A stretch of 64,000 nucleotides of DNA, taken from assembly GCA_963798465.1 (NCBI GenBank), contig CAWCTC010000001.1, positions 528,465-592,464 on the forward strand, read 5' to 3'. Each line of letters starts with the position of its first letter. Positions within the stretch are counted from its first letter, which is position 1. A program made the translations under genes and the position numbers. The notes below the pieces were generated by a model. The model made no database searches, was not told the origin of the DNA, and saw only the letters and a list, made by a program, of their open reading frames with translations. This stretch comes from an uncultured bacterium (GTDB lineage: Bacteria; Patescibacteriota; Minisyncoccia; Phycocordibacterales; GWA1-40-21). This document shows positions 11,192 to 51,270 of the stretch, one piece after another.

Positions 11192-11828
11192 TTATTCCTG
11201 ATCAGGAATAGTTTCCTCTGATGTTTCCATTTCAGCCTCCAAATCTTTCACTGCTTCAGCTTCTTCAGGCTTTTCTTCCTCATCTTTATGCTGGCTATTT
11301 TTATAATTTTCTATTTCAGCTTTAGCTTCTGAATAGCTCGGCATGTCTTCTATTTTTGTAAGACCCATAAATGAAAGCATTTCAAAAGTCGGCTTGTACA
11401 AAAAGCTTCTCTGATCTTTTGGATTTGGGACTTTTTCCATCAAGCCTCTTATCATTAGATTTCTCACAATAAAGTTTGATTGAACTCCGCGAATATAATC
11501 TATTTCTGCGCGAGAAAGCGGACCCTGATAAATAATTATCGAAAGGGTTTCAAGTCCGGCTTTTCCAAGATCTCGGACAAGTTCTTCTTTTGTAAGTTTT
11601 TCTATAAGTAGAGATACATCTTTTGATGTGCCGAGAGCAACTTCATCTTCCTTGAAAATCAAAACTATTCCTCTACCGCCAAGCTTGTTTCAAGATTTTT
11701 CAGAGCAGTAGAAATTTCTTCTTCTGATTTTCCAAAAATTTGTGAAAGTTTTTTTATCGAAACAGGCTCGCCTTTCCAAAAAAGAATGCTTCTATTTTTT
11801 TTTCTAATTCTAAATTATTTTCTTGCAT
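11192..11828 (-). pseudogene. scpB: Segregation/condensation protein ScpB, frame interrupted twice near the N-terminus
   Basis: ORF 11192..11662 holds the ScpB core. The first ~55 codons can be read only by changing frame twice: ATG 11828 MQENNLELEKKIEA / ILFWKGEPVSIKKLSQIFGKSEEEISTALKNLETSL / GGRGIVLIFKEDEVALG. Confidence 0.8.
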
Positions 11829-11877
11829 TGTATTATATTTTTTAATTTACTTTTGACTTTACGGACTTTACGGACTT

Positions 11878-12616
11878 TTAACTAATACATCGGTACTCCG
11901 ATGATTTTGTTTCCATCTGAATATCATCAAACTTTTCTCGCTGATTTACTTCTATTATACCTTGTTTTACGAGCTCAAGCATAGCCAAAAAACTGACAAT
12001 AACATTAATTTTATCCGCTTTTCCTATTCCAGAAAAATCTTTAAAACTCATTTTCAAGCGATGATTGAACTCTCTCCGTAAGATTTGTAATCATTTCTTC
12101 AAGACTGATGACTTTTGTCACTTTGAATTTCGGTTTCACTTCAAATTTCGGCAGATTTTTTATGACTTCAAATATCGCTTTGGCAATATTTTCTTTTGTC
12201 ATTTCTGTGTCAGGAGAAAAAACTGGCTCAATTTTCTTGTCATTCGGAAAGAATAATAATATGTTTGCCGAAAGTATTTTTTATATGAGCGCTCAATTCT
12301 TTGATTTTCTTGTAAATTTTGAGTTTCAATTCCAAATCATGAATATCGGTTTTTTCTTCTTCGGAAAGATCAAGATATCGGCAGATAGTGATTTTGATTT
12401 AATGAGCAAGAAGTGTGGAAGCGATCACCAAGAAATTCAGAAGTATCCTTGATGGAATAAATTTCCCTATTTTGCAAATACGAAATAAAATCATCCGTAA
12501 CTTTTGAAAGCGAAACCTCATTTATCATAAGCTTCCTTTTTTCAATAAGAGAAAGCAGAAGGTCCAGTCGGCCCCTCAAAAACTTCTGTTTTGATTTTGA
12601 ATGATTCTTCTGACAT
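11878..12616 (-). pseudogene. scpA: Segregation/condensation protein ScpA (kleisin), at least 4 frame changes
   Basis: Own translation, with | marking frame changes: MSEESFKIKTEVFEGP|LDLLLSLIEKRKLMINEVSLSKVTDDFISYLQ..SEFL|VIASTLLA|..EEKTDIHDLELKLKIYKKIKELSAHIKNTFGKH|..VISLEEMITNLTERV..INVIVSFLAMLELVKQGIIEVNQREKFDDIQ. The ATG overlaps the upstream stop (TAATG, 12614-12618). Confidence 0.75.
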
Positions 12617-20541: not shown

Positions 20542-20570
20542 GTCTTTGCGAGCGTAGCGAAGCAATCTAG
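20542..20570 (+). repeat. GTCAT-hairpin-CCAG module (A type), forward orientation; left arm flanking the GIY-YIG gene
   Basis: GTCTTTGCGAGCGTAGCGAAGCAATCTAG. Its end overlaps the GIY-YIG stop codon. Confidence 0.85.
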
Positions 20571-20857
20571 ATTTGATCAGTTAAATCATTCCATTCAGGA
20601 TTATTTTTTTCAATTAAATCTAGCTTTTTTCTTCTTGAACCCGCTTTTATTTGTTTTTCTCTTTCTATCGCACCTAACATTATCTCGCATGCTTCGTAAT
20701 ATACTAATGTATGAATGTTATATTTTTTTGTAAAACCATCGTTTTTATTTTCTTTATGCTCTTTTACTCTTCTCTTTAAATCAGAGGTTACTCCTGTATA
20801 TAATGTTCCATTTCTTTGACTTGCCATTATATAGATACATGGAATTTTGTCTTTCAT
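20567..20857 (-). CDS. Small stand-alone GIY-YIG nuclease (UPF0213/YhbQ-like)
   Basis: 96 aa with PCIYIMASQRNGTLYTGVTSDLKRRVKEHK (GIY..YIG-type block) and a conserved E in LGAIEREKQIK. It is inserted between dnaK and dnaJ. Confidence 0.85.
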   Translation of the reverse strand: MKDKIPCIYIMASQRNGTLYTGVTSDLKRRVKEHKENKNDGFTKKYNIHTLVYYEACEIMLGAIEREKQIKAGSRRKKLDLIEKNNPEWNDLTDQI

Positions 20858-23063: not shown

Positions 23064-23363
23064 TTATAAATTAGGAGCTCTTGTTGGTTGTGCGACAACA
23101 AATGATAAATCTTTTACCAAACTTAATATATCTGCAAAAAACGGACTGACAATCGGCTTAAAAGTTTCCGTTTCAAAATAAACTGGCAGTGCGAGAACTT
23201 CTTCTTGAGTTATGACATTTTCTTCAATAAGTTTTCCACAAACTGCTTTGGCAGTTATTTTTCCATTTATTTCAGTCAATTCAAAAACAACCAAAGCCAA
23301 AGAACCATTTGGCAATGTTATGGTTTTCTTTATGAATTTAGATTGTTTTTGTAAAGCTAACAT
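23064..23363 (-). CDS. Hypothetical protein (99 aa)
   Basis: An ORF only, with no motif I recognise. It is co-oriented between dnaK and the 611-aa gene and is bounded by repeat modules. Confidence 0.45.
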   Translation of the reverse strand: MLALQKQSKFIKKTITLPNGSLALVVFELTEINGKITAKAVCGKLIEENVITQEEVLALPVYFETETFKPIVSPFFADILSLVKDLSFVVAQPTRAPNL

Positions 23364-25396: not shown

Positions 25397-25435
25397 ATGT
25401 TTATTATATCAAATTATTAATATATTTTATTTCTT

Positions 25436-25496
25436 GTCTTTGCGAGCGAAGCGAAGCAATCCAGAACCTAGTTTGCTTCGCTTCGCTCGCAATGAC
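25436..25496. repeat. Perfect head-to-head pair of A-type modules (60-nt palindrome)
   Basis: GTCTTTGCGAGCGAAGCGAAGCAATCCAG-AAC-CTAGTTTGCTTCGCTTCGCTCGCAATGAC. The 20-nt arms TTGCGAGCGAAGCGAAGCAA and TTGCTTCGCTTCGCTCGCAA are exact complements. It ends exactly at the grpE stop. Confidence 0.9.
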
Positions 25497-36299: not shown

Positions 36300-36307
36300 A
36301 TTTTTGT

Positions 36308-36380
36308 GTCATTCCCGCGGAGGTGGGAATCTATTCTTAAAAATTAATCAATGCTGGATTCCCACCTCCGCGGGAATGAC
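36308..36380. repeat. Head-to-head pair of B-type modules with 22-nt spacer
   Basis: GTCATTCCCGCGGAGGTGGGAATC ... CTGGATTCCCACCTCCGCGGGAATGAC. The 24-nt arms are exact complements, and each arm contains ATTCCC-N8-GGGAAT. Confidence 0.9.
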
Positions 36381-36394
36381 AATACAAAACGCAA

Positions 36395-36997: not shown

Positions 36998-37864
36998 TTA
37001 TTTCTTTCCGAATTTTTCCCTGCAATGCTCGCAAAGTCCGTTCACTTCATCCTGGATAGATTTTATTTTTCTGTCATCAAAGTTGACGCTCTTCAATAAT
37101 TCGGTATTCAAAAGATTTTTGGACAATATTATTCCTTTTGAAAGAAACAGATTCTTATCAGATGTTGTCAGCGTCGTCAGAGCTGTCAGAGGAATAAGCT
37201 CGTATTTTTCTATCATGTCATGAAGATTATTGTCATAAGGATAATTCCATCCGACAAATTTTAAGGCAGGCTGGCATTGGCCATACTGAATAGCTGTCGC
37301 ACTGAATTTTGTATTTGTAATCACCCAGCCTTCGGTCAATTTTCTTTTTTCTCCGCCATAGAAATATTCCTGTCCAAAGATATCGTCGTATCTGGCTTTG
37401 ACATAAAGAACAATTTTCAAATCCGATTTCAGATTGAAATCTGTGTGGAATTTCGCTTCAACCATTATAAGCTCGCCCGGTTTCCAAGCAACTATGTCAA
37501 CTTCATGCGGAACGCATTTTCCCTGGACTATCTGATCCGTCAAAGTTTCATAGCCTTCAGCTTTAAAAATCTCTGCAACAAATTTTTCAAAAGGAAAACC
37601 TGTCGGACCAAGCTGGGCTATGGCTTTTTTTAAAGAATATCTGACGGCGATAGGCCTCTGGTTTTTTTTCAAAATTGAAAAAGCCTGCCTGTAAATATCT
37701 TGAGTTGAAACAACCAGTTTTGTTTTTGCTTCCAAACTTATTTCAGATACGACGCGAGAAATAAGATCATCCGTCGCACCGGCTTTCTTTAGAGACATTT
37801 CAAGCTTTTTGTAATCAAAAAGCTCTTTTTCTCCATTATTTTTTATAACGTAAAATTCATTCAT
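36998..37864 (-). CDS. ATP-cone domain fused to a PD-(D/E)xK (Mrr-like restriction endonuclease) domain
   Basis: N-terminal VIKNNGEKELFDYKKLEMSLKKAG (ATP-cone-like). The central FEKFVAEIFKAEGYE..HEVDIVAWKPGELIMVEAKFH gives a D..E-x-K arrangement. There is a C-terminal CxxC. Confidence 0.65.
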   Translation of the reverse strand: MNEFYVIKNNGEKELFDYKKLEMSLKKAGATDDLISRVVSEISLEAKTKLVVSTQDIYRQAFSILKKNQRPIAVRYSLKKAIAQLGPTGFPFEKFVAEIFKAEGYETLTDQIVQGKCVPHEVDIVAWKPGELIMVEAKFHTDFNLKSDLKIVLYVKARYDDIFGQEYFYGGEKRKLTEGWVITNTKFSATAIQYGQCQPALKFVGWNYPYDNNLHDMIEKYELIPLTALTTLTTSDKNLFLSKGIILSKNLLNTELLKSVNFDDRKIKSIQDEVNGLCEHCREKFGKK

Positions 37865-37873
37865 GAGATTTAT

Positions 37874-38001
37874 CCGAGAAAATTTTTGTTGATGAAAATG
37901 TGTTGATGTTATATGACTTATACTTTTATGCAGATTTATCTTTTAAAAATGGTTCCTCTATCAGTTAATCATTTTCAACACGTCAACAAAAACTTTAACG
38001 G
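37874..38001 (+). repeat. MITE-like element, family C, copy 3 (divergent interior, longer inverted termini)
   Basis: CCGAGAAAATTTTTGTTGATGAAAATG ... CATTTTCAACACGTCAACAAAAACTTTAACGG. It begins 9 nt from the start codon of the ATP-cone/Mrr gene. Confidence 0.8.
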
Positions 38002-38031
38002 ACTAATAATAACAAAGATTGCTGCCGTCTG

Positions 38032-39157
38032 CTAGCAGATTATTCCTCCGCCGAGGCAAATTTCCCCGTCATATATGACAGCGGATTGTCCGGAAGCAAT
38101 TGCCTTTTGCGGTTTTGTAAAATAGAGTTCAAATTCCGTATTTTCTTTTGACTTTATGGACTTTTGACTTTTGACTAATATGCATTCTTCAAGCGGCTGG
38201 CGATATCTGATTCTTGCGACATATTTTTTCGATAAATCCGGCATTTCTCCCAAAGTCCAATTCACTTTTTCCAGCTTTGCGATTTTTGATTCGCTTTCAG
38301 GTACTTTAGAAAAATTCTGCGAAACTGTAATCGTATTTTCTTTTATATTTTTTCCGATTATATAATATGGCGAATCGTTCGGTGTTTTTTCCGTGATTTT
38401 AAAACCATGCCTTTGCCCGACGGTCAAATAAAAAGCTCCGTCGTGTTCGCCGATTATTTCGCCTTTTTCATTCAAAACATTTCCTTTTTTTTCTTCAATA
38501 TAATTTTTGAGGAAATCTTTAATATCTATTTTCCCGATGAAGCAAAGTCCTTGGCTGTCTTTTTTTACAGCCGTGCTCAAACCATATTTTTTTGCCAAGC
38601 TTTCTGACTTCCGGCTTTTCAATTTCTCCAATCGGAAAAAGAATTTTTGAAAGCTGTTTCTGCGTTAGTGTCCAGAGAAAATATGTTTGATCTTTATTTT
38701 TGTCTTCACCGGCAAGCAATTTATACTTACTTAGAGGCCTTGCCTCTAAGTTACGAGCATAATGTCCCGTCGCAACAAAGTCAGCTCCTTGTTTCATCGC
38801 CCAATCAAAAAATCCTCCAAACTTTACATATTTATTGCACATAACGTCTGGATTCGGCGTCTTGCCTTTTTTATATTCTTCAATCATATAATCCACGACT
38901 TCTTTTTTATATTCAGCTTCAAGGTTTAAAGTTATGAAAGGAATATTTAATTTTGCGCAAACTCGCATCGCATCAAGTCTGTCGGCTCGCCAAGTGCACT
39001 CAAAGAATTCCGGTTGCCATACTTTTATAAAAACTCCAGTGACATCATAACCTTGTTCTTTAAGCAACGCAGCAGAAACAGAGCTATCAACTCCGCCAGA
39101 CATTCCGACATATGCTCTTGTCCTGCGTGAATTTTCACTTGGTTTTAAATTTAACAT
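38032..39157 (-). pseudogene. mnmA: tRNA 2-thiouridine synthase MnmA, frame broken by one extra base
   Basis: ORFs 38519..39157 (PP-loop VGMSGGVDSSVSA, ..DQTYFLW..) and 38032..38631 (..DSQGLCFIG.., ..ASGQSAVIYDGEICLGGGII) join if one G is removed (AAG CTT [G]GCA AAA). The span is 1126 nt. Confidence 0.88.
38730..38750. repeat. 21-nt GC-rich perfect palindrome inside the mnmA coding sequence
   Basis: CTTAGAGGC-CTT-GCCTCTAAG, read in frame as ..NLEARPLS... The same 21-mer occurs in ychF. Confidence 0.85.
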
Positions 39158-39230: not shown

Positions 39231-39776
39231 TTATTTATTTTCTTTATCATGTTTCAAAACCATTTCCATTTCAGGAATAATTGCACCACTTATTGGCATC
39301 CTCGTTGATTCATCACTAAATCTTTTTCCAGTATCAACAAAACCTAATTTTTTGTAAAAATTTTCAGCTTGTTTATTATATGTTGCAAGCTGAACTATTG
39401 TATCTTTATTTTTATCCAAAAAAACTTTTGCTCTACTCCAAAACATTGTGCCGATGCCTTTTCCTTGATATTCCGGCAATATGTATATGGCTTGAAGCTG
39501 ATTAAATTTTTCTTTTTTTATAAATCTAATCATTCCAATAACTAAATCACCATCTTTTGCAATTAAATATAATTCATTCTCTGGAATATTTGCATACCTT
39601 TCAGCTCTCTTTTTCATATTCTCTTCAGAATTTCTGTCTTTGTAGCGATCCTCGATATCTTCTATTGTTATACCAGCTTCCTTATTCGGATATGTTGCAA
39701 ACCATGTTTTGTAAAAAACTTCCTGGAGTCCTTGAACATCTTCTTTTGTCGGTTTTTGTATAGTAATCATTTCCAT
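39231..39776 (-). CDS. GNAT-family N-acetyltransferase
   Basis: 181 aa (..QLQAIYILPEYQGKGIGTMFWSRA.., ..NKQAENFYKKLGF..). Confidence 0.85.
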   Translation of the reverse strand: MEMITIQKPTKEDVQGLQEVFYKTWFATYPNKEAGITIEDIEDRYKDRNSEENMKKRAERYANIPENELYLIAKDGDLVIGMIRFIKKEKFNQLQAIYILPEYQGKGIGTMFWSRAKVFLDKNKDTIVQLATYNKQAENFYKKLGFVDTGKRFSDESTRMPISGAIIPEMEMVLKHDKENK

Positions 39777-39853
39777 AAATTATCACACAAAATTCGTTAA
39801 AACAACAATAAAAAAATCCCCGGACTCCGCATCCGAGGATTTAATAAAAAAAA

Positions 39854-40117
39854 TTATTTTCTTTTTATTTTTTTACCGAAAAGTTTTTCTTGTAGGCGAT
39901 CGACGACTACATCTCCATAAAGCCGCCTCATACGCATTATGGAAAATTTTTCGGCATTTATTTTTGAAAAGCCGAAAGACATTACAAACTTTGAAACAGT
40001 TGGAAATTATTTTTCTGGTGCCAAATCTTTCAATCCACGTCCTTTTTCCCCCATAGCTTTCACAAAAAATTTGATAGCCATCTTTTCCAAAACCTTTGTT
40101 TCCAGTTTTTCTTCCAT
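39854..40117 (-). CDS. Two short same-frame ORFs (36 aa and 42 aa) separated by TAA; possibly one ~87-codon gene with a nonsense codon
   Basis: AAAGGAGGTTTAAA-ATG at 40117 opens MEEKLETKVLEKMAIKFFVKAMGEKGRGLKDLAPEK*. The frame continues as ..MSFGFSKINAEKFSIMRMRRLYGDVVVDRLQEKLFGKKIKRK*. A terminator follows at 39810-39843. Confidence 0.35.
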
Positions 40118-40183
40118 TTTAAACCTCCTTTGTAATTTTCAATCCGTATTAAGAATGGCAGATTAGCCTGAGTCTGTCAATAA

Positions 40184-40981
40184 TTATTTTACTGCTTCAA
40201 GACTTATATCAAGACTTTTTGGAGAATGCGTCAGTGCGCCGACAGAAATATAAGTCGCACCAGCTTTTGCAAACTTTTTTATATTTTTCAAATTTACTCC
40301 GCCGGAAATTTCTGTTTCAATTCCTTTTGCGATTGTAACAGCTTTTTTTATTTCTTTAACATTCATATTATCAAGTAAAATTGAATCAGCACCCGCTTCC
40401 AAAGCTTCTTTCAATTCTTTCAGATTTTCTACTTCAACTTCAACTTCTTTGTTAAGTTTTTTTGTTCGCTTTACAGCTTCAGCAACACTGCCGGCAAAAG
40501 CAATATGATTATCTTTTATTAAAATACCATCATCAAGCCTCATTCTGTGATTTGTACCACCACCAATTTTTACCGCATATTTTTCAAGCACTCTCAAACC
40601 CGGAGTTGTTTTTCTTGTGTCTTTAATTTTTGTTTTTCCAGAAAGATTTACAAATTTTCTCGTGAGAGTCGCGATTCCACTAAGTCTTTGTAAAAAATTA
40701 AGAGCTACACGTTCTCCTGTCATAATAGCTCTCGCATTACCATCTATCTTTGCAATAATTTTACCTTTCTTCACAAAATCTCCGTCAGAAACTTCTTTAA
40801 TAAAATTAATATTCTTATCTAGATTTTCTAAAACTTCTTTCGCAATATCGAGTCCGGCGATCACTCCGTCTTCTTTGACAAGCAAAACAGCTTTCAATTT
40901 CTCATTTTTAGAAACAATAGAATTAGTCGTTATGTCCCCTTTTCCGATATCTTCCTTCAGTGCTTCATCTATTATTTTCAT
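40184..40981 (-). CDS. nadC: Nicotinate-nucleotide (quinolinate) pyrophosphorylase
   Basis: 265 aa (..TRKTTPGLRVLEKYAVKIGGGTNHRMRLDDGILIKDNH..). Confidence 0.92.
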   Translation of the reverse strand: MKIIDEALKEDIGKGDITTNSIVSKNEKLKAVLLVKEDGVIAGLDIAKEVLENLDKNINFIKEVSDGDFVKKGKIIAKIDGNARAIMTGERVALNFLQRLSGIATLTRKFVNLSGKTKIKDTRKTTPGLRVLEKYAVKIGGGTNHRMRLDDGILIKDNHIAFAGSVAEAVKRTKKLNKEVEVEVENLKELKEALEAGADSILLDNMNVKEIKKAVTIAKGIETEISGGVNLKNIKKFAKAGATYISVGALTHSPKSLDISLEAVK

Positions 40982-41023: not shown

Positions 41024-42172
41024 CTAGATTTTAAACTCGATTACATCTCCATCTTTAACAACGTATTCCTTTCCTTCTGTTCGGACCAAACCTTTTTCGC
41101 GAGCTGAGCCATAAGAGCCTGAAGCTAAAAGCTTGTCCCATTCAATCACTTCTGCACGAACAAATTTGGCTTCGAAGTCACCGTGAATTGCGGTTCCTGC
41201 TTTTGGTGCGGTCCAACCTTTTTTAATTGTCCATGCCCGAGTTTCATCTTCTCCGGTTGTAAAATATGTAATGAGTCCGAGTAAATTGTATCCAGCTTTT
41301 ATCAAGTCGTTTATTCCATCCTCACTTAGAGGCCTTGCCTCTAAGTTTTGAGAGGCAAGGCCTCTAAGTAAATCTTCTCCGACAAGTGCTTGTCTCATCT
41401 CATCTTTTTCTTTACCTTCAAAATCTTTAAGTTCTTGTTCAATACCGGCATCAACAACAACGTATTGCGATTTTGATTCTTTGAAAAAGTTCATTAACTT
41501 TTCCCATCTAGCATCTTTGAGTTCATCGAGATTTTTTCCGCCGGCTTTTTTATTTAAAATATAAAGAATAGGCTTCATCGTGATCAGACAAAGCTTGTTT
41601 ATTTCAACGATTTCTTTTTCATCAAGCGAAACTGTGCTTGAAAGCTGTCCGGCTTCGAGAGCAACTTTTATTTTTTCTGCAGCAGCATTTTCTATTATTG
41701 CAGTCTTGGTTCCCTTTTTAATTTCACTTCCCAAACTTGATAATCTTTTTGTGACAGTCTGAAGATCAGCAAGAATCAATTCAAGATTTATTGTTTCAAT
41801 ATCTGAAAGCGGTTCAACTTTATTTGAAACGTGAATTATATTTTCATCATCAAAAATTCTTACGACTTCGGCAATCGCATCTGTTTCTCTGATATTCGTA
41901 AGAAATTTATTTCCCAAACCTTCGCCTGTAGACGCACCTTTTACAAGCCCGGCAATATCTACAAACTCAACTGCCGCTGGAATCGTTTTCGCAGACTTTG
42001 AAAATTCTGCGAGCTTGAAAATTCTTTCATCAGGAACAGCAACAACGCCGACAGAAGGATCAATCGTCGCGAAAGGATAATTAGCCACGAGAACACTTTT
42101 TCTCGTGAGTGCATTGAATAAGGTTGATTTGCCTACGTTCGGCAATCCGACAATTCCGATTGATAAACTCAT
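41024..42172 (-). CDS. ychF: Ribosome-binding ATPase YchF/OLA1 with a ~16-aa palindrome-encoded insertion
   Basis: MSLSIGIVGLPNVGKSTLFNALT.., a C-terminal TGS-like block, and the extra segment LLRGLASQNLEARPLS. Confidence 0.93.
   Translation of the reverse strand: MSLSIGIVGLPNVGKSTLFNALTRKSVLVANYPFATIDPSVGVVAVPDERIFKLAEFSKSAKTIPAAVEFVDIAGLVKGASTGEGLGNKFLTNIRETDAIAEVVRIFDDENIIHVSNKVEPLSDIETINLELILADLQTVTKRLSSLGSEIKKGTKTAIIENAAAEKIKVALEAGQLSSTVSLDEKEIVEINKLCLITMKPILYILNKKAGGKNLDELKDARWEKLMNFFKESKSQYVVVDAGIEQELKDFEGKEKDEMRQALVGEDLLRGLASQNLEARPLSEDGINDLIKAGYNLLGLITYFTTGEDETRAWTIKKGWTAPKAGTAIHGDFEAKFVRAEVIEWDKLLASGSYGSAREKGLVRTEGKEYVVKDGDVIEFKI
41325..41368. repeat. Double copy of the GC-rich palindrome inside the ychF coding sequence
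   Basis: CTTAGAGGCCTTGCCTCT-AAGTTTTG-AGAGGCAAGGCCTCTAAG. The first 21 nt are identical to 38730-38750. Confidence 0.85.
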
Positions 42173-44172: not shown

Positions 44173-47100
44173 TTATTTTGACATATTTCCTGTTGGAAGA
44201 TTTGTCGGAGCGCTTGGCGTTTTCGGACCACTCATCGGCGCTTTTGGAATATTTGGAGTCTTATTATTTTTTCTGTAGAAGAATATCAAACCTATCATAG
44301 CTATTAAGACAATTACTATCAAAGCTACCATCGGCTTGTTTGGAATATTTGAGAAACCTTCTGCAACGGCTGCGAACAATCCTGCATTATTAGTTGAAGT
44401 TGCAACTGATGATGTAGAATTTGTCGATGTCGCCAATGAAACTTGTTCATTGTTGCTTGTTGTAGCAGAAGAATTGAATTCTCCTACTCCTGCTGGAATC
44501 GTTATTCCTGTGTCTGGAGTTCCGGAAATTGCTTCAGATGTTCCTGTTGTATTTGCAATAGTTGTGGTTGATGCAACTGGTGCTGTTGAAACTATCGGAG
44601 TAACTGCATTTACGATAACTGTTCTTGTCGCAGATGAAGTGTTTCCGGCTTTATCAGATACTGAGTAAACTACTGAATATGTTCCTGGAACATTCATATT
44701 GATTGAACTTACAGCATTTATATTAGATGTAATATTTCCATCAACATTATCATTTGCTGTCGCTCCCGCATCTACATATGAATCGCCGACATTTATATTC
44801 GCTGGATTTGCTCCGAGAATTGTAATAACTGGCGCAACAATATCTTCTGAAGATGGTGTTGTATTTGTAAATGTAGGTGTTGGAATAACTCCTGATGCTG
44901 TTGAACCTCCGTTGACGGGATTAACTACTGGTGCTGCGACAACATTTACTGTTCTTATAGCTGTTGCAACATTTTCTGCTGCATCGCTTGAAGTGTAAGT
45001 TATTGTATACGTAGCAACTACGGTTGTATCAACCGTTCCTGAAGTTGTTACTGTTGTTGAGGTTGCATCAAACGCATCATAAGCTGTTGCGCCTGCATCT
45101 GTGTATAGATTTCCAACTGTAACATTTACTGGGTTTGAACCAAGAATCGTGATTACCGGTGGAACTGTATCTTCTGTAACAACATTATTTACTGTAACTG
45201 CATAATTTGCTGTGAATGATCCAACTGTTACCGTCAAAACTTCATTTGGATTTGCAACTGAAGAATCAAATCCTGAAATGTTTGAATCACTGATATCATT
45301 AATTGTTGAAGTTGAATTATCTGAATATGTTCCTGTAACTATCATTCCTGTGATATCAACCGCTGAATCACCAACTGTGTAAACTGTTTTGGTTGGCAGA
45401 GTTGTGATTGCGATTGATTTTAATGTTGGAGCTGGAATTGAACCTGAACTTACAGAAATCGTGTAGGTTGCTGTTTTTCCACTAACATTAATTGTAAGAG
45501 TTTCGCTTGAAGTTGCAGCCGAAGAATCAAATCCTGAAATGTTTGAATCACTGATATCATTAATTGTTGAAGTTGAATTATCTGAATATGTTCCTGTAAC
45601 TATCATTCCTGTGATATCAACCGCTGAATCACCAACTGTGTAAACTGTTTTGGTTGGCAGAGTTGTGATTGCGATGCTTGATAGTGTTGGAGCTGGAATT
45701 GGGTTTGAATTAACTGTAACTGTTACTGTAGCTGATATTGTTGTTGATCCAGCTGTTCCTGTAATAACAGTTGTTCCTGTTGCAGAAGCTGTAAACAAAC
45801 CGCTTGCATCTATATTACCAACTGAAGTATCTGAGCTAGACCAAGTTACTGAAGCATTTATTGGATTACCAAATTGATCAGAAGTTGAAGCTGTGAATTG
45901 TGTAGTTGAACCAACTGACAATGTTAATGGTGAAGCTGAAATAGTAATTGATGATACGACTGGAGTTGGATCTGAAAAATCTGAAACTGTAACCGTTACT
46001 GTAGCTGATATTGTTGTTGATCCAGCTGTTCCTGTAATAACAGTTGTTCCTGTTGCAGAAGCTGTAAACAAACCAGTTGAATCTATATTACCAACTGAAG
46101 TATCTGAACTAGACCAAGTTACTGCTGCAGAAATTGGATTATTATTTTGATCCAAAGTTATTGCTGTGAATTGTGTTGTTGAACCGACTGACAATGTTAA
46201 TGGTGAAGCTGAAATACTAATTGATGATACGACTGGAGTTGGAACACTTCCATTAATCACAACCGTATAAGTTGCTGTTTTTCCGCTGACTGTAATTGTC
46301 AAAACTTCATTTGGGTTTGCAACTGAAGAATTAAATCCAGAAATGTTTGAATCACTGATATCATTAATTGTTGAAGTTGAATTATCTGAATATGTTCCTG
46401 TAACTATCATTCCTGTGATATCAACCGCTGAATCACCAACTGTGTAAACTGTTTTGGTTGGCAGAGTTGTGATTGCGATTGATTTTAATGTTGGAGCTGG
46501 AATTGAACCTGAACTTACAGAAATCGTGTAGGTTGCTGTTTTTCCACTAACATTAATTGTAAGAGTTTCGCTTGAAGTTGCAGCCGAAGAATCAAATCCT
46601 GAAATGTTTGAATCACTGATATCATTAATTGTTGAAGTTGAATTATCTGAATATGTTCCTGTAACTACCAATCCTGTTATATCAAGTGAATCACCAACTG
46701 TGTAAACTGTTTTTGTTGCTGGTGAGGTGATTGCGATTGATTGCAATGTTGGTGCTGGAGGAATGGCTGCAAAATTTGCAGTGACTGTAATATCTCCGGC
46801 TACTGCTAGATCAGTTCTTGTTGCTGTAAGAACTCCGTCGCTCCAATTTGAGAATTGGAATCCAAAATTTGGAAATGCTGTTACTGATGTTCCATTTGCA
46901 CCAGAGGCAACAACTTGAGTTGAAGATCCTGTTATAGAACCGTTACCATCAGTTGTGTAAGTAAGTGTAAATGAAGCTGGAGTTCCAATTGAACTTATTT
47001 CTGTTGGAACTGTAATCGTTGTAGTTGTTCCATTTATTGTAATAGTACCGCTATCAATCATGCCGTTCAAAATTACTGCATTAGTTGTTGTTGCATTTAC

Positions 47101-50100
47101 AAGAACTGTTCCTGTAATTGTTGAACCTGAATCAACTACGTTTGTAAGTGTTGAACTTGCAACTGTTGAGCCCGTAAGATTTGAATTCGTTGAAGTTGAA
47201 TCTGATATGACAACATTATTTAATACTGAATTTACAAGATCACTGTTTGTTGAAGTTGAATTTGTAAGTTGTGAATTATCAAGTGTTGAGAGAGTTACAG
47301 AACTTGATGCAACATTTGAACCATTGCTAATAGTTGAAGTTGCGATAGTGCTCAATGTTATTGTTGAAGCATCTATCGTTGAACCAGAGACAGTTGAAGT
47401 CGCAACATAAGAATGATTTGAAACTGTTGTGTAGTAAATATTTGATGCATAAATTTGTGAGTTTGTACTTGTTGAATGAATAAACTTATACAAAGTTAAT
47501 GGATCAATTGTTGAATATGCAATATAACAATCTGTTGCAAAATAATTTTCTACATCAGAATTTAATATAGTACATCTTGCAATGTCATCATTTGATAAAG
47601 TTGAGTTTGTAGAAACAACTTGATCAAGGTTTGTATCATCAACGGTTGTGTTTGTAACTGTTGAATTATTTACATTCCAGAATGTTGAAAGTGTTGAGTT
47701 TGTGATTGTTGTTGTTCCTGTTGTTGTTGCAATTGGAGCAAGCAAAGATTCTGCAAGTGATGGTGAATACAAGCTGTAGAAGATTCCTCCCATAGTTGAA
47801 TTCGTTATCATAACTTGTGAATCAGAAACTATGAATGGTCCATAACTTGTAGTTGTTGAAATATTTCCAGCATTATCTATTGCTGCAACATGGAACCAAA
47901 GGGTGCCAAAACCAGAATCAGTAGTTGTTGTGGCAGTTGTTGTTGAAACTCCAACTGTTCCTGTAACTATTTGAGTTGCGTTTGAATTATCCCAAAGGTA
48001 TTCATATCCGGCCAATCCAGATTCTGAATCTATTGAATTCGTCCATGAAATATTTGCTGAAGCGATTATCGTACCTGTTGCACTTGCATTTGTAATGACA
48101 GGTGTTGTTGGTGCGGTCGTATCAGGAATTACTACATTTGAAACAATAACTGTTCTTGTCGCTGTTGCAACATTTCCTGCTGCATCGCTTGAAGTGTAAG
48201 TAATTGTATATGAACCGATAGTATTTACATTAACTGTTCCAGTTGCTGTAACTGCTGTCGATGTTCCATCGTATGCATCGAACGCTGTTGCGCCTGCATC
48301 AATGTAAAAATCACCGACAAATATATTAGTTGGATTTGCTCCAAGAATTGTTATTACTGGCGCAATCGTATCAGGAATAATTACATTTGAAACTGTAACA
48401 GTTGTTGAAGCTGAAAATGCTCCAGCTGTTCCAGTTATTGTAGTTGTTCCGGCAGAAAGTCCGATGAACAATCCGCTTGCATCTATCATACCGACAGATG
48501 AGTTTGAACTAATCCAAGTTGTTGTAGCTGGGAATGGATTTCCAAATTGATCTTTTGTTGTTGAAGTAAATGTTGTTGTTGCTCCAACTAATATATTTGG
48601 ATTTAATGGTGCAATGCTGATTGAAGCAAGTGCTGGTGGAATAACTGCATTGTTTACACTTATCGTATAAGTTGCAGTTGATGTTCCAACTGTGATTGTC
48701 AAAACTTCATTTGGGTTTGCAACTAAAGAATTGAATCCTGAAATGTTTGAAACATTTATTGGTTCTGTTGAAGTTGAACCGTCAGAATATGTTCCTGTGA
48801 CAACAAGTCCAGTGATATCAAGTGCGTCGCCGACTGTGTAAACTGTTTTGTTTGCTGGAGTCGTGATTGCAATTGATTGCAATGTTGGAGTTGAAGTTGC
48901 AGCAGATACTGTTACAAGAGTTGTAATCGGCATGAGTGAACCTGCTGATGCAGTTATCTCAGTTGTTCCAATTGAACTTGCTGTAAATATTCCGTTCGCA
49001 TCAATTGTTCCGACAGCATTATTTGTGTTTGACCAAGTTGTGGTCGTTGCAAATGGCTGACCAAATTGATCCAAAGTTGTTGAGACAAAAGTTATTTGTT
49101 CTCCAACTGTAACTGATGGATTTAGCGGTGAAATACTCATTGATGTAAGTACTGCTGGAACAGCGCTGACTACAACTTCTCTTGAAATTGTAGAAACATT
49201 TCCGGATAAATCTGAAGAAATGTAATTTACCGTATATATACCGACATTATTGGTATTAACAGTTCCAAATATGGTAACTGGTCTTACTCCGTCAACCAAG
49301 TCGGTTGAAGAAGCTCCCTGTTCTACATATGTATTTCCTACGGATAGATCAAGGACAGCTGGTCCTATCAAGGACATTGCTGGTCCTGTTGTGTCCTTTA
49401 TAACAACCAGAGACGTAGCGGTTGCAACATTTCCTGAAAGATCTGTTGCTGTCCAAATAACTGTTGAAGTTCCAAGTCCGAATCCTGCTGGATTATAGGT
49501 AATAATTGGGCTTGTACTTGAGTTATCTGTTGCTGTAGCCTGTACTAATACTGGCGTTGTTGTTGTTCCTGTTGCTTCAAATACTTGAGTAGCTGGAACT
49601 GAAATGACAGGAGCTATTGTATCTACAACATTTACTATTCTTGTAGCTGTTGCAACATTTCCTGCTAGATCTACTGAAGTATAATCTACTGCATATGTTC
49701 CCAAAACTGAAGTATTTACTGAACTTGATGCTGTAAATGTAAGTGGAACTCCTGAATTATCAGTAACACTGACACCTGCATCTGTATAAAGCGTATTTAT
49801 TTGAACATTGGCGGGATTTGATCCAAGTATTGTTATAACTGGAGCAATCTTATCAATATTTGAAATTGTAATTGTCCTTGATGAGAAGTTTCCTGCTACA
49901 TCCGTTGCTGTGAACGTAACTGTTCCGTTGTTTGAGAAATCAGCTGTTGATGTTGCACCTGAATTTATTATTGAAGCTATTGTAGAAGTTCCTACAATAT
50001 TTCCTTCATTTGTAGTTGCAGTAACTATGACATCTTGATTTGTTGATGAAGTTGCATATGGAAGCACTGTAATTATTGGTGCGACTTTATCAATGTTTGA

Positions 50101-51270
50101 AATTGTAATTGTCCTTGATGAGAAGTTTCCTGCTGCATCTGTAGCTGTGAACGTAACTGTTCCGTTGTTTGAGAAATCAGCTGTTGATGTTGCACCATTG
50201 TTTGCAATTGAAGCAATAGTAGAAACACCTACAATATTTCCTTCATTTGTAGTTGCAGTAACTATGACATCTTGATTTGTTGATGAAGTTGCATATGGAA
50301 GTACTGTAATTATTGGCGCAACTTTATCAATATTTGAAATTGTAATTGTTTTTGAAGAAACATTTCCTGCTGCATCTGTAGCTGTAAATGTGACTGTGCC
50401 ATTATCTGAAAATGTAGCTGATGATGTTGCTCCTGAAGTTACTATGCTAGCTGATGATGAAGATGCAATTATTGTTCCTTCATTTGTAACTGCTGTAACT
50501 GTAACATTTTGATTTGTTGATGAAGTTGCATATGGAAGAATTGTAATGACTGGGGCTGTAAGATCTGCTCCGAAAGAAACAATTATAATACCATTTCCTC
50601 CGATTGCTCCGGCATCACCCAAATTTCCATTTGAGTTCAACCATCCGCTTCCTGCTCCACCACCGGCACCTCTTACTCCAGCTGTTGGAGCTGTGTACGA
50701 AGTAGCACTTCCTGTGCTTCCCTGACCTGAGATTCCAATGGCAGTTGTTCCACCATTTCCTCCGTAGGTTCTTGATCCGAGATTGCTTGCACCATTGGTT
50801 CCGTTTGTTCCACCGATACCACCGGCAAAACCACCGACACCGTTTCCAATGCCAGCTGTTGCACCTTGTCCGCCGAATCCTCCGTTAGCAACAACAGAAG
50901 ATCCGAAAGATGTTGATCCTCCGTTTCCTCCGTTTCCTGCTGCAACAGTTAAAGATCCAGCTGTACCTGCAGTACCTGCTGTTCCAATTGTGTAAGGAAT
51001 TATTTGTCCTGGAGTAACAGGAATAGTTGCTATCTTAACAGCTCCTGCTCCTCCTCCGCCACCACCGTATGTGTAGGCTCCGCCCGCTCCGCCTCCTCCG
51101 GCACCGATTGTTTCTACCGTAACGCTAGTTACACCAGCTGGTACGGTAAAATTTCCGCTTTTCAAAAGAGTTGTCGTAGCTGAATAATCAGCAAACGCAA
51201 CTGATCCGAAAGACAGAACGCCAAGGAAGACGACGATGAGGGCGCTTATTGTTCTAGTAATATTTTTCAT
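44173..51270 (-). CDS. Giant (2365 aa) cell-surface protein: signal peptide, glycine-rich N-terminal domain, many Ig-like repeats, C-terminal TM anchor
   Basis: Signal peptide MKNITRTISALIVVFLGVLSFGSVAFA. Residues ~50-230 are rich in GGxGG runs. Repeated modules include APVITILG.NP..V..G..Y.DAGA (HYR/DUF5011-like), ..SSDTSVGNID.TGLFTA.ATGTT.ITGT (Big_2-like) and LQSIAIT..KTVYTVGD.LDITG..VTGTYSD. The C-terminus has a TM helix, ALIVIVLIAMIGLIFFY, and a short basic tail. Confidence 0.9.
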   Translation of the reverse strand: MKNITRTISALIVVFLGVLSFGSVAFADYSATTTLLKSGNFTVPAGVTSVTVETIGAGGGGAGGAYTYGGGGGGAGAVKIATIPVTPGQIIPYTIGTAGTAGTAGSLTVAAGNGGNGGSTSFGSSVVANGGFGGQGATAGIGNGVGGFAGGIGGTNGTNGASNLGSRTYGGNGGTTAIGISGQGSTGSATSYTAPTAGVRGAGGGAGSGWLNSNGNLGDAGAIGGNGIIIVSFGADLTAPVITILPYATSSTNQNVTVTAVTNEGTIIASSSSASIVTSGATSSATFSDNGTVTFTATDAAGNVSSKTITISNIDKVAPIITVLPYATSSTNQDVIVTATTNEGNIVGVSTIASIANNGATSTADFSNNGTVTFTATDAAGNFSSRTITISNIDKVAPIITVLPYATSSTNQDVIVTATTNEGNIVGTSTIASIINSGATSTADFSNNGTVTFTATDVAGNFSSRTITISNIDKIAPVITILGSNPANVQINTLYTDAGVSVTDNSGVPLTFTASSSVNTSVLGTYAVDYTSVDLAGNVATATRIVNVVDTIAPVISVPATQVFEATGTTTTPVLVQATATDNSSTSPIITYNPAGFGLGTSTVIWTATDLSGNVATATSLVVIKDTTGPAMSLIGPAVLDLSVGNTYVEQGASSTDLVDGVRPVTIFGTVNTNNVGIYTVNYISSDLSGNVSTISREVVVSAVPAVLTSMSISPLNPSVTVGEQITFVSTTLDQFGQPFATTTTWSNTNNAVGTIDANGIFTASSIGTTEITASAGSLMPITTLVTVSAATSTPTLQSIAITTPANKTVYTVGDALDITGLVVTGTYSDGSTSTEPINVSNISGFNSLVANPNEVLTITVGTSTATYTISVNNAVIPPALASISIAPLNPNILVGATTTFTSTTKDQFGNPFPATTTWISSNSSVGMIDASGLFIGLSAGTTTITGTAGAFSASTTVTVSNVIIPDTIAPVITILGANPTNIFVGDFYIDAGATAFDAYDGTSTAVTATGTVNVNTIGSYTITYTSSDAAGNVATATRTVIVSNVVIPDTTAPTTPVITNASATGTIIASANISWTNSIDSESGLAGYEYLWDNSNATQIVTGTVGVSTTTATTTTDSGFGTLWFHVAAIDNAGNISTTTSYGPFIVSDSQVMITNSTMGGIFYSLYSPSLAESLLAPIATTTGTTTITNSTLSTFWNVNNSTVTNTTVDDTNLDQVVSTNSTLSNDDIARCTILNSDVENYFATDCYIAYSTIDPLTLYKFIHSTSTNSQIYASNIYYTTVSNHSYVATSTVSGSTIDASTITLSTIATSTISNGSNVASSSVTLSTLDNSQLTNSTSTNSDLVNSVLNNVVISDSTSTNSNLTGSTVASSTLTNVVDSGSTITGTVLVNATTTNAVILNGMIDSGTITINGTTTTITVPTEISSIGTPASFTLTYTTDGNGSITGSSTQVVASGANGTSVTAFPNFGFQFSNWSDGVLTATRTDLAVAGDITVTANFAAIPPAPTLQSIAITSPATKTVYTVGDSLDITGLVVTGTYSDNSTSTINDISDSNISGFDSSAATSSETLTINVSGKTATYTISVSSGSIPAPTLKSIAITTLPTKTVYTVGDSAVDITGMIVTGTYSDNSTSTINDISDSNISGFNSSVANPNEVLTITVSGKTATYTVVINGSVPTPVVSSISISASPLTLSVGSTTQFTAITLDQNNNPISAAVTWSSSDTSVGNIDSTGLFTASATGTTVITGTAGSTTISATVTVTVSDFSDPTPVVSSITISASPLTLSVGSTTQFTASTSDQFGNPINASVTWSSSDTSVGNIDASGLFTASATGTTVITGTAGSTTISATVTVTVNSNPIPAPTLSSIAITTLPTKTVYTVGDSAVDITGMIVTGTYSDNSTSTINDISDSNISGFDSSAATSSETLTINVSGKTATYTISVSSGSIPAPTLKSIAITTLPTKTVYTVGDSAVDITGMIVTGTYSDNSTSTINDISDSNISGFDSSVANPNEVLTVTVGSFTANYAVTVNNVVTEDTVPPVITILGSNPVNVTVGNLYTDAGATAYDAFDATSTTVTTSGTVDTTVVATYTITYTSSDAAENVATAIRTVNVVAAPVVNPVNGGSTASGVIPTPTFTNTTPSSEDIVAPVITILGANPANINVGDSYVDAGATANDNVDGNITSNINAVSSINMNVPGTYSVVYSVSDKAGNTSSATRTVIVNAVTPIVSTAPVASTTTIANTTGTSEAISGTPDTGITIPAGVGEFNSSATTSNNEQVSLATSTNSTSSVATSTNNAGLFAAVAEGFSNIPNKPMVALIVIVLIAMIGLIFFYRKNNKTPNIPKAPMSGPKTPSAPTNLPTGNMSK
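45266..46710 (-). repeat. Near-identical intragenic DNA repeats (four ~260-bp units plus a ~250-bp pair) within the giant gene
   Basis: The string ..AATCCTGAAATGTTTGAATCACTGATATCATTAATTGTTGAAGTTGAATTATCTGAATATGTTCCTGTAAC.. recurs starting near 45266, 45527, 46333 and 46590. The blocks 45700-45890 and 45960-46140 are also near-identical. Confidence 0.85.
49850..50560 (-). repeat. Three tandem 237-bp (79-codon) repeats within the giant gene
   Basis: Unit starts TTATCAAT(A/G)TTTGAAATTGTAATTGT lie at 49850, 50087 and 50324. They encode DKVAPIITVLPYATSSTNQDVIVTATTNEGNIVG..TFTATDAAGN.SS.TITISNI. Confidence 0.9.

What the first reader, a model, noticed from the sequence alone, without database searches (positions are those of the whole stretch)
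38145..38750. Two different ~20-nt repeat units sit in frame inside mnmA
**First unit.** 38730-38750, CTTAGAGGC-CTT-GCCTCTAAG, is a perfect GC-rich palindrome in an AT-rich gene. It is read as ..ATGHYAR-NLEARPLS-KYKLL.., in the loop that varies in length between the E. coli and Bacillus MnmA sequences as I recall them.

**Second unit.** 38145-38164, CTTTTGACTTTATGGACTTT, matches the scpA-scpB spacer (11850-11869, CTTTTGACTTTACGGACTTT) at 19 of 20 positions. It encodes part of KSQKSIKSKENTE, a segment about 7 aa longer than the E. coli counterpart.

**Interpretation.** The palindrome is 21 nt long, and the segment around the second unit is about 7 codons longer than in E. coli, so neither shifts the reading frame. 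In-frame colonisation of housekeeping genes by short palindromes is known from Rickettsia palindromic elements. Seeing an analogous pattern here is inference.
Basis: partly seen in the sequence, partly recalled or inferred. Interest (0 to 1): 0.55.

Follow-up and report, generated by a model that had tools for sequence, protein, structure and literature searches.

The report
Mobile repeat hairpins translated inside housekeeping genes
Two short repeated DNA elements sit in frame inside the tRNA-modification gene mnmA of a tiny-genome (Patescibacteria) bacterium, one of them also inside ychF, and the first belongs to a family of 21-base hairpins that flank an IS200-like transposase gene in related genomes.

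Summary
Both units are at the stated coordinates and in the stated reading frames. However, mnmA is split by a 1-nt frameshift at 38599 in this window. An independent assembly of the same strain lacks that extra base.

**Unit 1 (CTTAGAGGC-CTT-GCCTCTAAG).**
- It recurs twice inside ychF as an inverted doublet. That doublet is a clean 51-nt, 17-aa insertion relative to the closest orthologs.
- The same 9-3-9 hairpin occurs in 36 stretches of reference-genome DNA, about 31 of them from Patescibacteria.
- 63% of copies lie in long open frames, read as LRGxASK or LEAxPLS.
- In 10 of those stretches a gene for an IS200-like Y1 transposase resembling REP-associated tyrosine transposases (RAYTs) lies within the stretch. 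In at least eight it is directly flanked by the hairpin, and in several the hairpin also lies inside it.
- I read unit 1 as a Patescibacterial REP/REPIN-type element.

**Unit 2.**
- It is one arm of a widespread AT-rich repeat made of AAAGTC 8–9-mers, found in at least 120 metagenome contigs.
- Complete copies are inverted pairs. About 12% of the contigs carry a 23S-rRNA-IVS-protein gene, in most cases flanked by the arrays.
- It adds 7 aa to a β-hairpin loop of MnmA.

**Context.** Both mnmA sites are hot spots: more than half of 112 orthologs carry some repeat-derived insert at site 1. Intragenic REPs are already known elsewhere. No transposase gene lies in the window.

The parts
38729..38751 (.). 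Unit 1: a 21-nt perfect palindrome CTTAGAGGC-CTT-GCCTCTAAG (38730-38750). Flanking A/T extends the stem to 10 bp. In mnmA (minus strand) it is read as N-LEARPLS.
   Evidence: Folds at -9.4 kcal/mol, z -5.4. The flanking A..T pair is present in 47/51 family members.
41321..41371 (-). A 51-nt insertion in ychF carrying two unit-1 copies in inverted orientation (41325-41345 exact; 41348-41368 with 2 mismatches). This is a REPIN-like doublet, read as L-LRGLASQ-N-LEARPLS-E.
   Evidence: Clean 51-nt gap against L037/L038. 17 aa longer than the 90%-identical orthologs and than PDB 1jal. Folds as one 19-bp hairpin at -22.5 kcal/mol, z -8.6.
38145..38178 (-). Unit 2: a single arm of an AAAGTC-period repeat array (minus strand GTCAAAAGTCAAAAGTCCATAAAGTCAAAAG). 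Read as VKSQKSIKSK in the C-terminal β-barrel of MnmA.
   Evidence: No hairpin forms on its own. +7 aa against 9hlv/2hma. Empty orthologs exist.
11850..11886 (-). Second window copy of the unit-2 array (AAAAGTCCGTAAAGTCCGTAAAGTCAAAAG). It lies between scpA and scpB and overlaps the scpA stop codon.
38032..39157 (-). mnmA (tRNA 2-thiouridine synthase). In this window it is split into ORFs 38519..39157 and 38032..38631 by one extra base at 38599.
   Evidence: An intact 374-aa protein, P0121, is encoded on Logan contig L041. The only 3 differences between L041 and the window over 6.1 kb all lie in mnmA.
41024..42172 (-). ychF (ribosome-binding ATPase), intact at 382 aa. It hosts the unit-1 doublet.

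Best explanation
**Overall.** Both units are copies of dispersed, non-autonomous repeat elements. They landed in permissive surface loops of housekeeping proteins and are now translated as part of them.

**Unit 1: what it is.**
- It is a REP/REPIN-type element of Patescibacteria: a 21-nt hairpin with a 9-bp stem and a 3-nt loop, usually extended by an A·T pair.
- In related genomes the same hairpin directly flanks a single IS200-like Y1 (HUH) transposase gene of the RAYT kind, and in several it also lies inside that gene.

**Unit 1: how it probably spreads.**
- The likely mechanism is the one known for REPs. The Y1 enzyme recognises the folded single-stranded hairpin, cleaves next to it, and moves singlets or inverted doublets in trans.
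- The unit is 7 codons long and is open in two of three frames on either strand (LRGxASK or LEAxPLS; the third frame contains TAG and TAA). Copies that land in loops of essential genes can therefore survive.
- In compact genomes with little intergenic DNA, that is where most copies end up.

**Unit 2: what it is.**
- It is one arm of an AT-rich element built from 8–9-nt AAAGTC units.
- Complete copies are inverted pairs, and some enclose a 23S-rRNA-IVS-protein gene.
- How it moves is unknown.

**Shown versus inferred.**
- Shown: repeat membership, insertion status, reading frames, and the association with the transposase in other genomes.
- Inferred: mobilisation by that transposase, tolerance at the protein level, and activity in this particular genome.
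For: **Unit 1 in the window.**
- Three copies are present where none is expected by chance.
- The ychF doublet is a clean 51-nt insertion against the closest orthologs and against PDB 1jal.

**Unit 1 in other genomes.**
- A scan of reference genomes found 36 stretches carrying CTTAGAGGC-NNN-GCCTCTAAG, about 31 of them from Patescibacteria.
- The loop triplet is specific to each genome, for example GAC/GTC in all Kaiserbacteria MFKT01 loci and CTT/AAG in all DATDYB01 loci. This pattern indicates amplification within genomes.
- The same DNA is read in two different frames and also occurs between genes. The identity is therefore at the DNA level, not the protein level.

**Link to the transposase.**
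- 10 of the 36 stretches carry a gene of about 215 aa, and a further contig, L166, shows the same arrangement.
- The L001 and L009 genes hit Pfam Y1_Tnp above the curated cutoff (E 4e-8).
- In at least eight stretches the hairpin lies 31-112 nt upstream of the start; in several it is also at the 3' end and inside the ORF.
- A homologous transposase gene in L139 uses a different 9-3-9 hairpin, TGTGGGGAT-AGC-ATCCCCACA, in a similar arrangement.
- The family has 5971 members at E<=1e-5. Most of the source names that identify an organism say Patescibacteria, and some are annotated RayT.

**mnmA site 1 in orthologs.**
- Other genomes carry their own REP variant at the same junction. L162 has a CTTGGAAGC doublet and L163 has a decayed copy.

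**Unit 2.**
- Exact 20-mers are found on at least 120 metagenome contigs.
- 36% have an inverted partner within 140 nt.
- The closest mnmA ortholog has a complete 75-nt hairpin of this type at site 1.
- 14 of 120 contigs have a PF05635 gene (two checked against Pfam, E about 1e-33), in most cases flanked by the arrays.

**Hot-spot census.**
- Only 47 of 112 MnmA orthologs are 'empty' at site 1, and 64 of 94 are empty at site 2.
Against: - No Y1/RAYT gene and no IVS-protein gene is present in the 64-kb window. None of the top 120 RAYT hits lies on this genome's 733-kb contig.
- Only three unit-1 copies occur in 64 kb. This is far below classical REP densities.
- The hairpin lacks the GTAG/CGTC tag of described REP superfamilies.
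- The transposase matches the NCBIfam RAYT model only below its cutoff and has no detectable PDB sequence relative.
- At mnmA site 1 the net length gain is only 1-2 aa, so simple insertion is not demonstrated there.
- The ychF insertion is shared with L163 (YchF 92% identical). It is absent from the closer L037 (94% identical). This requires loss, recombination or recurrent insertion.
- For unit 2 no transposase association was found. Only 2 of 120 contigs have a RAYT gene, and it is not adjacent.
- Structure models were too poor to prove surface exposure (pLDDT 59 and 52).
Confidence: 0.72

Rival explanations
1. The segments are selected protein features, such as lineage-specific functional loops of MnmA and YchF. 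The DNA palindromy would then be a by-product of the peptide sequence.
For: The inserts are kept in frame. The site-2 peptide SQKSIKSK is conserved in several MnmA orthologs. The ychF insert persists in two diverged genomes.
Against: The same 21-mer is translated in two different frames (LRGLAS and LEARPLS) within one ychF insert. It is read in both frames, and occurs between genes, across genomes. Unit 2 is mostly intergenic. The same loop holds at least five unrelated repeat families in different orthologs, and 42% of orthologs have none. The copy in L163 is decaying.
Confidence: 0.07
2. The hairpins act at the RNA or DNA level inside the genes, and that function maintains them. Possible roles are translational pausing, mRNA stability, RNase processing, or binding of a nucleoid or regulatory protein. 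They would not simply be tolerated transposition products.
For: The stems are perfect and very stable (z -5 to -8.6). At mnmA site 1, two genomes carry different stem variants with changes on both arms at the same junction. Transposase genes carry two internal cognate hairpins at fixed positions.
Against: No T-run follows either hairpin, so they are not intrinsic terminators. Most orthologs lack any hairpin at these sites. The L163 copies have lost their pairing without loss of the gene. Replacement by the genome's own REP variant also explains the paired changes.
Confidence: 0.12
3. The repeats are chance or slippage-generated low-complexity sequence, or assembly artefacts.
For: Unit 2 is A/T-rich and internally periodic. 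A single 19/20 match in 64 kb is not by itself extraordinary. The window has at least one indel difference from another assembly, and the scpA/scpB ORFs are fragmented.
Against: An independent short-read contig carries identical unit-1 copies at both sites and matches the window everywhere outside three mnmA positions, so unit 2 is identical there too. No unit-1 matches occur in 100 shuffles. Exact family members are found on 36 genome stretches and at least 120 metagenome contigs.
Confidence: 0.02

Closest known systems
REP / REPIN elements mobilised by RAYT (REP-associated tyrosine transposases; Bertels & Rainey 2011, PMC3116915; Di Nocera et al. 2013, PMC3733652)
   Same: - It is a short perfect palindrome occurring as singlets and as inverted doublets.
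- An IS200-like Y1 transposase gene is flanked by the same palindrome.
- The sequence variant is specific to each genome.
- Intragenic, in-frame REPs that encode 7-30 aa are already documented in Opitutus, Thauera and Rickettsia (PMC3733652).
   Different: - There is no GTAG or CGTC tag.
- The unit is exactly 21 nt (9-3-9).
- Most copies (63%) lie inside open reading frames rather than between genes.
- Density is low in this window.
- The transposase is only weakly similar to the curated RAYT model, and it carries two internal cognate hairpins.
- The host is Patescibacteria, for which I found no published description.
Rickettsia palindromic elements (RPE)
   Same: Palindromic repeats are inserted in frame into housekeeping genes and translated as extra loop residues. 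The copies are lineage-specific and decay over time.
   Different: RPE-1 is 100-150 bp and is a Rickettsia sequence family. There is no sequence relationship here, and the elements here are 21-51 nt. According to Di Nocera et al., RPE-4 and RPE-6 are CGTC-type REPs. The unit here has neither tag.
23S rRNA intervening sequences (IVS) that encode a four-helix-bundle protein (Pfam PF05635)
   Same: For unit 2: in 14 of 120 contigs a PF05635 gene is present, in most cases between an AAAGTC array and its inverted copy. This is an ORF inside a long stem, as in classical IVSs.
   Different: These elements lie between or inside protein-coding genes, not in 23S rRNA. The stems are built from 8-9-nt periodic units. 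The window copies are solo arms without the gene. RNase III excision would be incompatible with translation of mnmA.
MITEs found in coding regions (review PMC10969869)
   Same: These are non-autonomous inverted-repeat elements that lack a transposase and are occasionally inserted in frame.
   Different: No terminal inverted repeats plus target-site duplication could be defined for either unit. Unit 1 is far shorter than typical MITEs.

Membership tests
REP/REPIN-RAYT system | Short (about 20-40 nt) palindromic repeat able to fold as a hairpin | tested here: met
   A 9-bp perfect stem with a 3-nt loop, -9.4 kcal/mol, z -5.4. The doublet folds at -22.5 kcal/mol, z -8.6.
REP/REPIN-RAYT system | A Y1 (HUH) transposase gene flanked by the cognate palindromes | tested here: inconclusive
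   Met in other genomes. 10 of 36 hairpin stretches, plus L166, carry a homologous ~215-aa gene; the two checked (L001, L009) hit Pfam Y1_Tnp. At least eight are directly flanked by the hairpin. Not met in the window, which has no such gene. The rest of the source genome could not be read.
REP/REPIN-RAYT system | Many dispersed copies within one genome, with a family sequence specific to that genome | tested here: inconclusive
   The window holds 3 copies at 2 loci in 64 kb, all with CTT/AAG loops. Other genomes show 4-8 perfect copies with genome-specific loops among the stretches retrieved. Whole-genome counts were not obtainable.
REP/REPIN-RAYT system | Conserved GTAG or CGTC tetranucleotide at one end (Di Nocera superfamilies) | tested here: not met
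   The flanks show only an A..T extension and no GTAG/CGTC. The conserved end is (A)CTTAG.
REP/REPIN-RAYT system | Predominantly extragenic location | tested here: not met
   All 3 window copies are in genes. 32 of 51 family members lie in open frames of at least 450 nt, against 85% of random positions.
REP/REPIN-RAYT system | Inverted doublets (REPINs) as a recurrent unit | tested here: met
   The ychF doublet. The L162 mnmA doublet. P0150 and P0152 peptides of the form LGSxASK...LEAxLPS.
REP/REPIN-RAYT system | The transposase matches the curated RAYT model (NCBIfam NF047646) | tested here: not met
   18.6 and 31.4 bits against a cutoff of 80. Only the general Pfam Y1_Tnp model passes. No PDB sequence match.
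REP/REPIN-RAYT system | The transposase binds and cleaves the hairpin and mobilises it | not testable with these tools
   Needs biochemistry or observed transposition.
Rickettsia palindromic elements | Sequence membership in RPE-1 to RPE-8, in Rickettsia | tested here: not met
   The host is Patescibacteria. The units are 21-51 nt. No RPE family is involved; the resemblance is functional only.
23S rRNA IVS-type element (for unit 2) | A PF05635 gene enclosed by a long inverted repeat | tested here: inconclusive
   True for most of the 14 of 120 contigs that carry a PF05635 homolog. The window copies are solo arms with no PF05635 gene anywhere in the window.
23S rRNA IVS-type element (for unit 2) | Located in 23S rRNA helices and excised by RNase III | tested here: not met
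   The copies lie in mnmA and between scpA and scpB. There is no rRNA in the window.

The most novel reading that the evidence does not exclude
Patescibacteria may carry a distinct REP-RAYT variant that has adapted to genomes with almost no intergenic DNA.
- Its hairpin is exactly seven codons long and is open in two frames on either strand, so it proliferates mainly inside genes.
- The transposase gene itself carries two in-frame copies of its own cognate hairpin at fixed positions.
- These internal copies co-vary with the dispersed copies from lineage to lineage. They could be the master template or an autoregulatory site.
- Together with IVS-like AAAGTC cassettes and several other hairpin families, this would make loop hot spots of essential proteins such as MnmA and YchF a general sink for mobile DNA, and a source of protein length variation across the phylum.
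Probability: 0.35. Interest if true: 0.75.

Novelty: new variant of a known kind. Interest (0 to 1): 0.55.

Why it matters
- It gives a mechanistic label (REP/RAYT-type and IVS-like repeats) to the short, odd peptide inserts found in conserved proteins of Patescibacteria. Such inserts can mislead alignment, phylogeny and structure prediction for this large uncultured group.
- It extends the REP-RAYT system to a phylum for which I found no published description. It also shows a mostly intragenic lifestyle, which bears on how selfish DNA persists in extremely compact genomes.
- The hot-spot loops and the genome-specific hairpin variants could serve as strain and lineage markers.
- The internal hairpins in the transposase genes give a directly testable hypothesis about how the enzyme is regulated.

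Tried and rejected
**Searches that found nothing.**
- tblastn of the Y1 transposase and of the IVS protein against the window gave no hits.
- The Y1 protein and its 8-sequence profile gave no meaningful match in PDB sequences.
- The last large protein search did not return a RAYT from the source genome's 733-kb contig. P0271, the RAYT with an LRGLASK segment, turned out to be from another organism (GC 47%).
- Rfam gathering on the window returned only five tRNAs. Nothing was found at the repeats or in the 160-nt intergenic repeat.
- Literature searches for RAYT or REP in Patescibacteria/CPR, and for the repeat sequences themselves, returned nothing relevant.

**Analyses that were not informative.**
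- AlphaFold2 models of MnmA and YchF, built from 25-30 close homologs, were too poor to prove loop exposure (mean pLDDT 59 and 52). I used alignments to solved structures instead.
- A conserved TTAGT terminus for unit 2 was considered and dropped, because only 19 of 122 arrays have it.
- An attempt to obtain an independent assembly of the scpA-scpB spacer failed. The Logan contig ends about 260 nt short of it.

**Ideas considered and rejected.**
- Unit 2 mobilised by a RAYT: only 2 of 120 contigs have one, and it is not adjacent.
- The mnmA frameshift as a homopolymer error in the A7 run: the extra base is not in that run but a few bases upstream of it in mnmA, at 38599.
- DNA-uptake sequence, CRISPR repeat, intrinsic terminator and sequencing adapter as identities for unit 1. 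These were rejected on density, spacing, the absence of a T-run, and presence in independent assemblies.
Full report
**1. The observation**

- The 21-mer CTTAGAGGC-CTT-GCCTCTAAG occupies 38730-38750. It lies in a minus-strand ORF whose translation reads ...ATGHYARNLEARPLSKYKLLAGEDKNKDQ..., typical of MnmA.
- The 20-mer CTTTTGACTTTATGGACTTT occupies 38145-38164, with a 19/20 copy at 11850-11869. It encodes part of ILVKSQKSIKSKENTE.
- The window is AT-rich, at about 29-41% G+C in 2-kb windows.

Two points needed correction.
- mnmA is not a single open frame here. It is listed as two overlapping ORFs, 38519..39157 and 38032..38631.
  - An intact 374-aa MnmA (P0121), identical to my frame-corrected translation, exists on a Logan contig from run ERR11594402.
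  - That contig is 99.95% identical to the window over 6.1 kb.
  - The only three differences all lie in mnmA: one extra base at 38599, which causes the frameshift, and two synonymous changes at 38687 and 38960.
  - Whether the extra base is a strain variant or an assembly error cannot be decided here.
- The copy at 11850 overlaps the last codons and the stop codon of the scpA C-terminal ORF.

**2. Unit 1 is a repeat, and in ychF it is a clean insertion**

- Allowing up to three mismatches, the 21-mer occurs three times in the window: at 38730, at 41325 (exact) and at 41348 (two mismatches, opposite orientation). No matches occurred in 100 shuffles.
- The last two copies lie 2 nt apart inside ychF (41024..42172, minus strand). 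They are read as ...EDLLRGLASQNLEARPLSEDG....
  - The same DNA is therefore translated in two different frames within one insert.
- The window's YchF is 382 aa. Its closest relatives, at 90% identity, are 365 aa.
  - In the protein alignment the difference is one block.
  - In the DNA alignment it is a clean 51-nt gap.
  - PDB 1jal lacks the same 17 residues.
- The 51-mer folds into a single 19-bp hairpin at -22.5 kcal/mol, z -8.6. This is the shape of a REP doublet (REPIN).

**3. What unit 1 belongs to**

A scan of one genome per GTDB species for CTTAGAGGC-NNN-GCCTCTAAG returned 36 stretches. About 31 are from Patescibacteria: Paceibacteria, Yanofsky-, Kaiser- and Vogelbacteria, and Saccharibacteria.

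Features of the 51 copies:
- The loop triplet is specific to each genome and appears in both orientations (for example GAC/GTC, TCA/TGA, CTT/AAG).
- The stem is usually extended by an A·T pair (47/51).
- There is no GTAG or CGTC tag.
- 32 of 51 copies lie in open frames of at least 450 nt, compared with 85% of random positions.
- They are read as LRGxASK or LEAxPLS. The third frame contains TAG and TAA.

Link to a transposase gene:
- The stretches with several copies all contain a gene of about 215 aa with YHIYNRG, an HxH motif and a YINLN motif.
- The L001 and L009 genes hit Pfam Y1_Tnp (IS200-like) above the curated cutoff. They hit the NCBIfam RAYT model only weakly.
- tblastn finds this gene in 10 of the 36 stretches. 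In at least eight the hairpin lies 31-112 nt upstream of the start; in several it is also at the 3' end and inside the ORF.
- A further example, L166, shows the same arrangement.
- A homologous transposase gene in L139 uses a different 9-3-9 hairpin (TGTGGGGAT-AGC-ATCCCCACA) in a similar arrangement.
- The family has 5971 members at E<=1e-5. Most of the source names that identify an organism say Patescibacteria, and some are annotated 'REP element-mobilizing transposase RayT'.

From this I conclude that unit 1 is a REP-type element of a RAYT-like system. Mobilisation by the enzyme is inferred from the known REP/RAYT mechanism and was not shown here. The window itself encodes no such gene.

**4. 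mnmA site 1**

- Against 'empty' orthologs (ARVKNVAEKTQ-MLAG) the window's ARNLEARPLSKYK-LLAG is only 2 aa longer. Against 9hlv/2hma it is 1 aa longer.
- The hairpin has therefore replaced the loop rather than merely lengthened it.
- The site is a hot spot. Among 112 orthologs only 47 have the modal 11-aa segment. The others carry 1 to 48 extra residues from at least five repeat families.
- Three other orthologs hold REP-type inserts at this site.
  - L162 has a doublet of a different stem variant (CTTGGAAGC-GAA/TTC-GCTTCCAAG). Its 3' junction is nearly the same as in the window.
  - L163 has a decayed ATTTAGAGGCAAGGCCTCTAAAT.
- The closest ortholog (L037, P0122) has something different here: a 75-nt AT-rich hairpin of the unit-2 type.

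**5. Unit 2**

- The two window copies align over about 42 nt with 38 matches and one 2-nt gap.
- Neither folds on its own. Each is a single arm.
- The copies are arrays of 8-9-nt AAAGTC units, from 20 to more than 600 nt long, and mostly lie in short-ORF (intergenic) context.
- 36% have an inverted GACTTT array within 140 nt.
- In about ten cases they lie in long open frames, read as KSIKSK or KVYKVKS.
- In 14 of 120 contigs a Pfam PF05635 '23S rRNA intervening sequence protein' gene is present (two checked, E about 1e-33), in most cases flanked by a forward array and often an inverted one. This is an IVS-like cassette located outside rRNA.
- Only 2 of 120 contigs have a RAYT gene, and it is not adjacent.
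- At mnmA site 2 the insert adds 7 aa relative to solved structures.
- Twelve orthologs have the 21-aa length at site 2 that the unit-2 insert produces, while 64 of 94 have the modal 13-14 aa.
- The poor AF2 model places the insert between two β-strands (E323-329 and E342-350), with low confidence at residues 333-338. This is weak support for a loop location.

**6. Complications**

- The ychF insert has the same junctions in the window and in L163, where it is decaying.
- However, YchF of L037, which lacks the insert, is closer to the window (94.2%) than YchF of L163 is (91.9%).
- Loss, recombination or recurrent insertion must therefore be invoked.
- The window and L163 also share the gene order ychF–nadC–small ORF–mnmA, whereas L037 has ychF directly next to mnmA.

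**7. Comparison with what is known**

- REPs inside genes, encoding 7-30 aa, have been described for Opitutus, Thauera and Rickettsia (RPE-4 and RPE-6) (PMC3733652).
- REPINs and RAYTs are well established (PMC3116915, PMC5581495).
- I found nothing on such elements in Patescibacteria.
- The features that differ from the described kinds are:
  - the exact 21-nt unit without a GTAG/CGTC tag;
  - the mainly intragenic location;
  - the distant Y1 clade;
  - the two cognate hairpins inside each transposase gene.

**8. Verdict**

- The finding is real.
- It is a new variant of a known kind and is moderately interesting.
- The most novel aspects lie in related loci rather than in the window: the internal hairpins of the transposase genes and the IVS-protein cassettes.

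Noticed in passing
window 38599 (also 38687, 38960): mnmA carries one extra base at 38599 that splits the gene. An independent contig (L041, 99.95% identical over 6.1 kb) lacks it. The only two other differences between the contigs are synonymous changes, also within mnmA.
   Followed up: yes
window 11192-12579: scpB and scpA appear as several short ORFs in different frames (for example 11878..12057, 12041..12202, 12370..12579; the scpB start near 11828 is out of frame with 11192..11662). This suggests further frameshifts or pseudogenes in this assembly.
   Followed up: partly
window 20532-20571, 20871-20902, 23021-23052, 23378-23448, 25426-25496: A second, GC-rich palindromic repeat family (GTCATTGCGAGCGAAGCGAAGCAATCCAG type). 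All copies lie between ORFs. They flank a small GIY-YIG nuclease gene (20567..20857, Pfam E 2.6e-15) and a 99-aa ORF (23064..23363).
   Followed up: partly
window 36307-36381 and 22892-22920: A third palindromic family (TGTCATTCCCGCGGAGGTGGGAATC). It includes a perfect 25-nt inverted pair separated by 25 nt.
   Followed up: no
window 7705-7868, 8969-9133, 37860-38018 (partial copy at 58085-58124): An intergenic repeat of about 160 nt (TTTACCCGAGAAAATTTTTG...ACGTCGACAAAAACTTTAAC). One copy lies immediately downstream of mnmA. There is no Rfam match.
   Followed up: no
window 44700-51000: Extensive 230-300-nt tandem and dispersed repeats within a very large gene. The syntenic gene in relatives has Big_2 / Ig-like surface domains.
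   Followed up: no
window 57399-58643: A cluster of five tRNA genes interleaved with perfect hairpins (for example a 24-nt inverted pair at 57851-57902, and 9-bp stems at 57399, 57432, 57642 and 57864).
   Followed up: no
L001 1481-2134, L009 1053-1715, L013 2739-3386, L139 2401-3120, and proteins P0241-P0360: Patescibacterial RAYT-like genes carry two in-frame 7-aa segments (L[GR]xxx[SA]K) at the same two positions. In many members the two segments match each other, but they differ between proteins. In the loci examined they are internal copies of the lineage's own 21-nt hairpin.
   Followed up: partly
L042 3807-4349, L045 1150-1710, L087 1359-1870: PF05635 (23S rRNA IVS protein) genes lie between an AAAGTC array and its inverted copy. 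This is an IVS-like cassette outside rRNA. A PF05635 homolog is present in 14 of 120 contigs, in most cases flanked by the arrays.
   Followed up: partly
alignments A1 and A2 (YchF and MnmA orthologs): Orthologs carry other recurrent repeat-derived peptides at the same loops and elsewhere. Examples are RGLDADLRRKN, ISNIEYGISNKKSTFDIRHS, HSDILKNVGMLYE, PARPDFMGG, PVGTNGSLEPTSNRAS and SAQGGSASGG. This points to several more hairpin families that insert in frame.
   Followed up: partly
window 39231-40981 compared with L037 7070-7098: nadC and a GNAT acetyltransferase gene lie between ychF and mnmA in the window, in L041 and in L163. In the closer relative L037 the two genes abut and overlap. The ychF insert follows the synteny pattern rather than overall protein identity.
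   Followed up: partly
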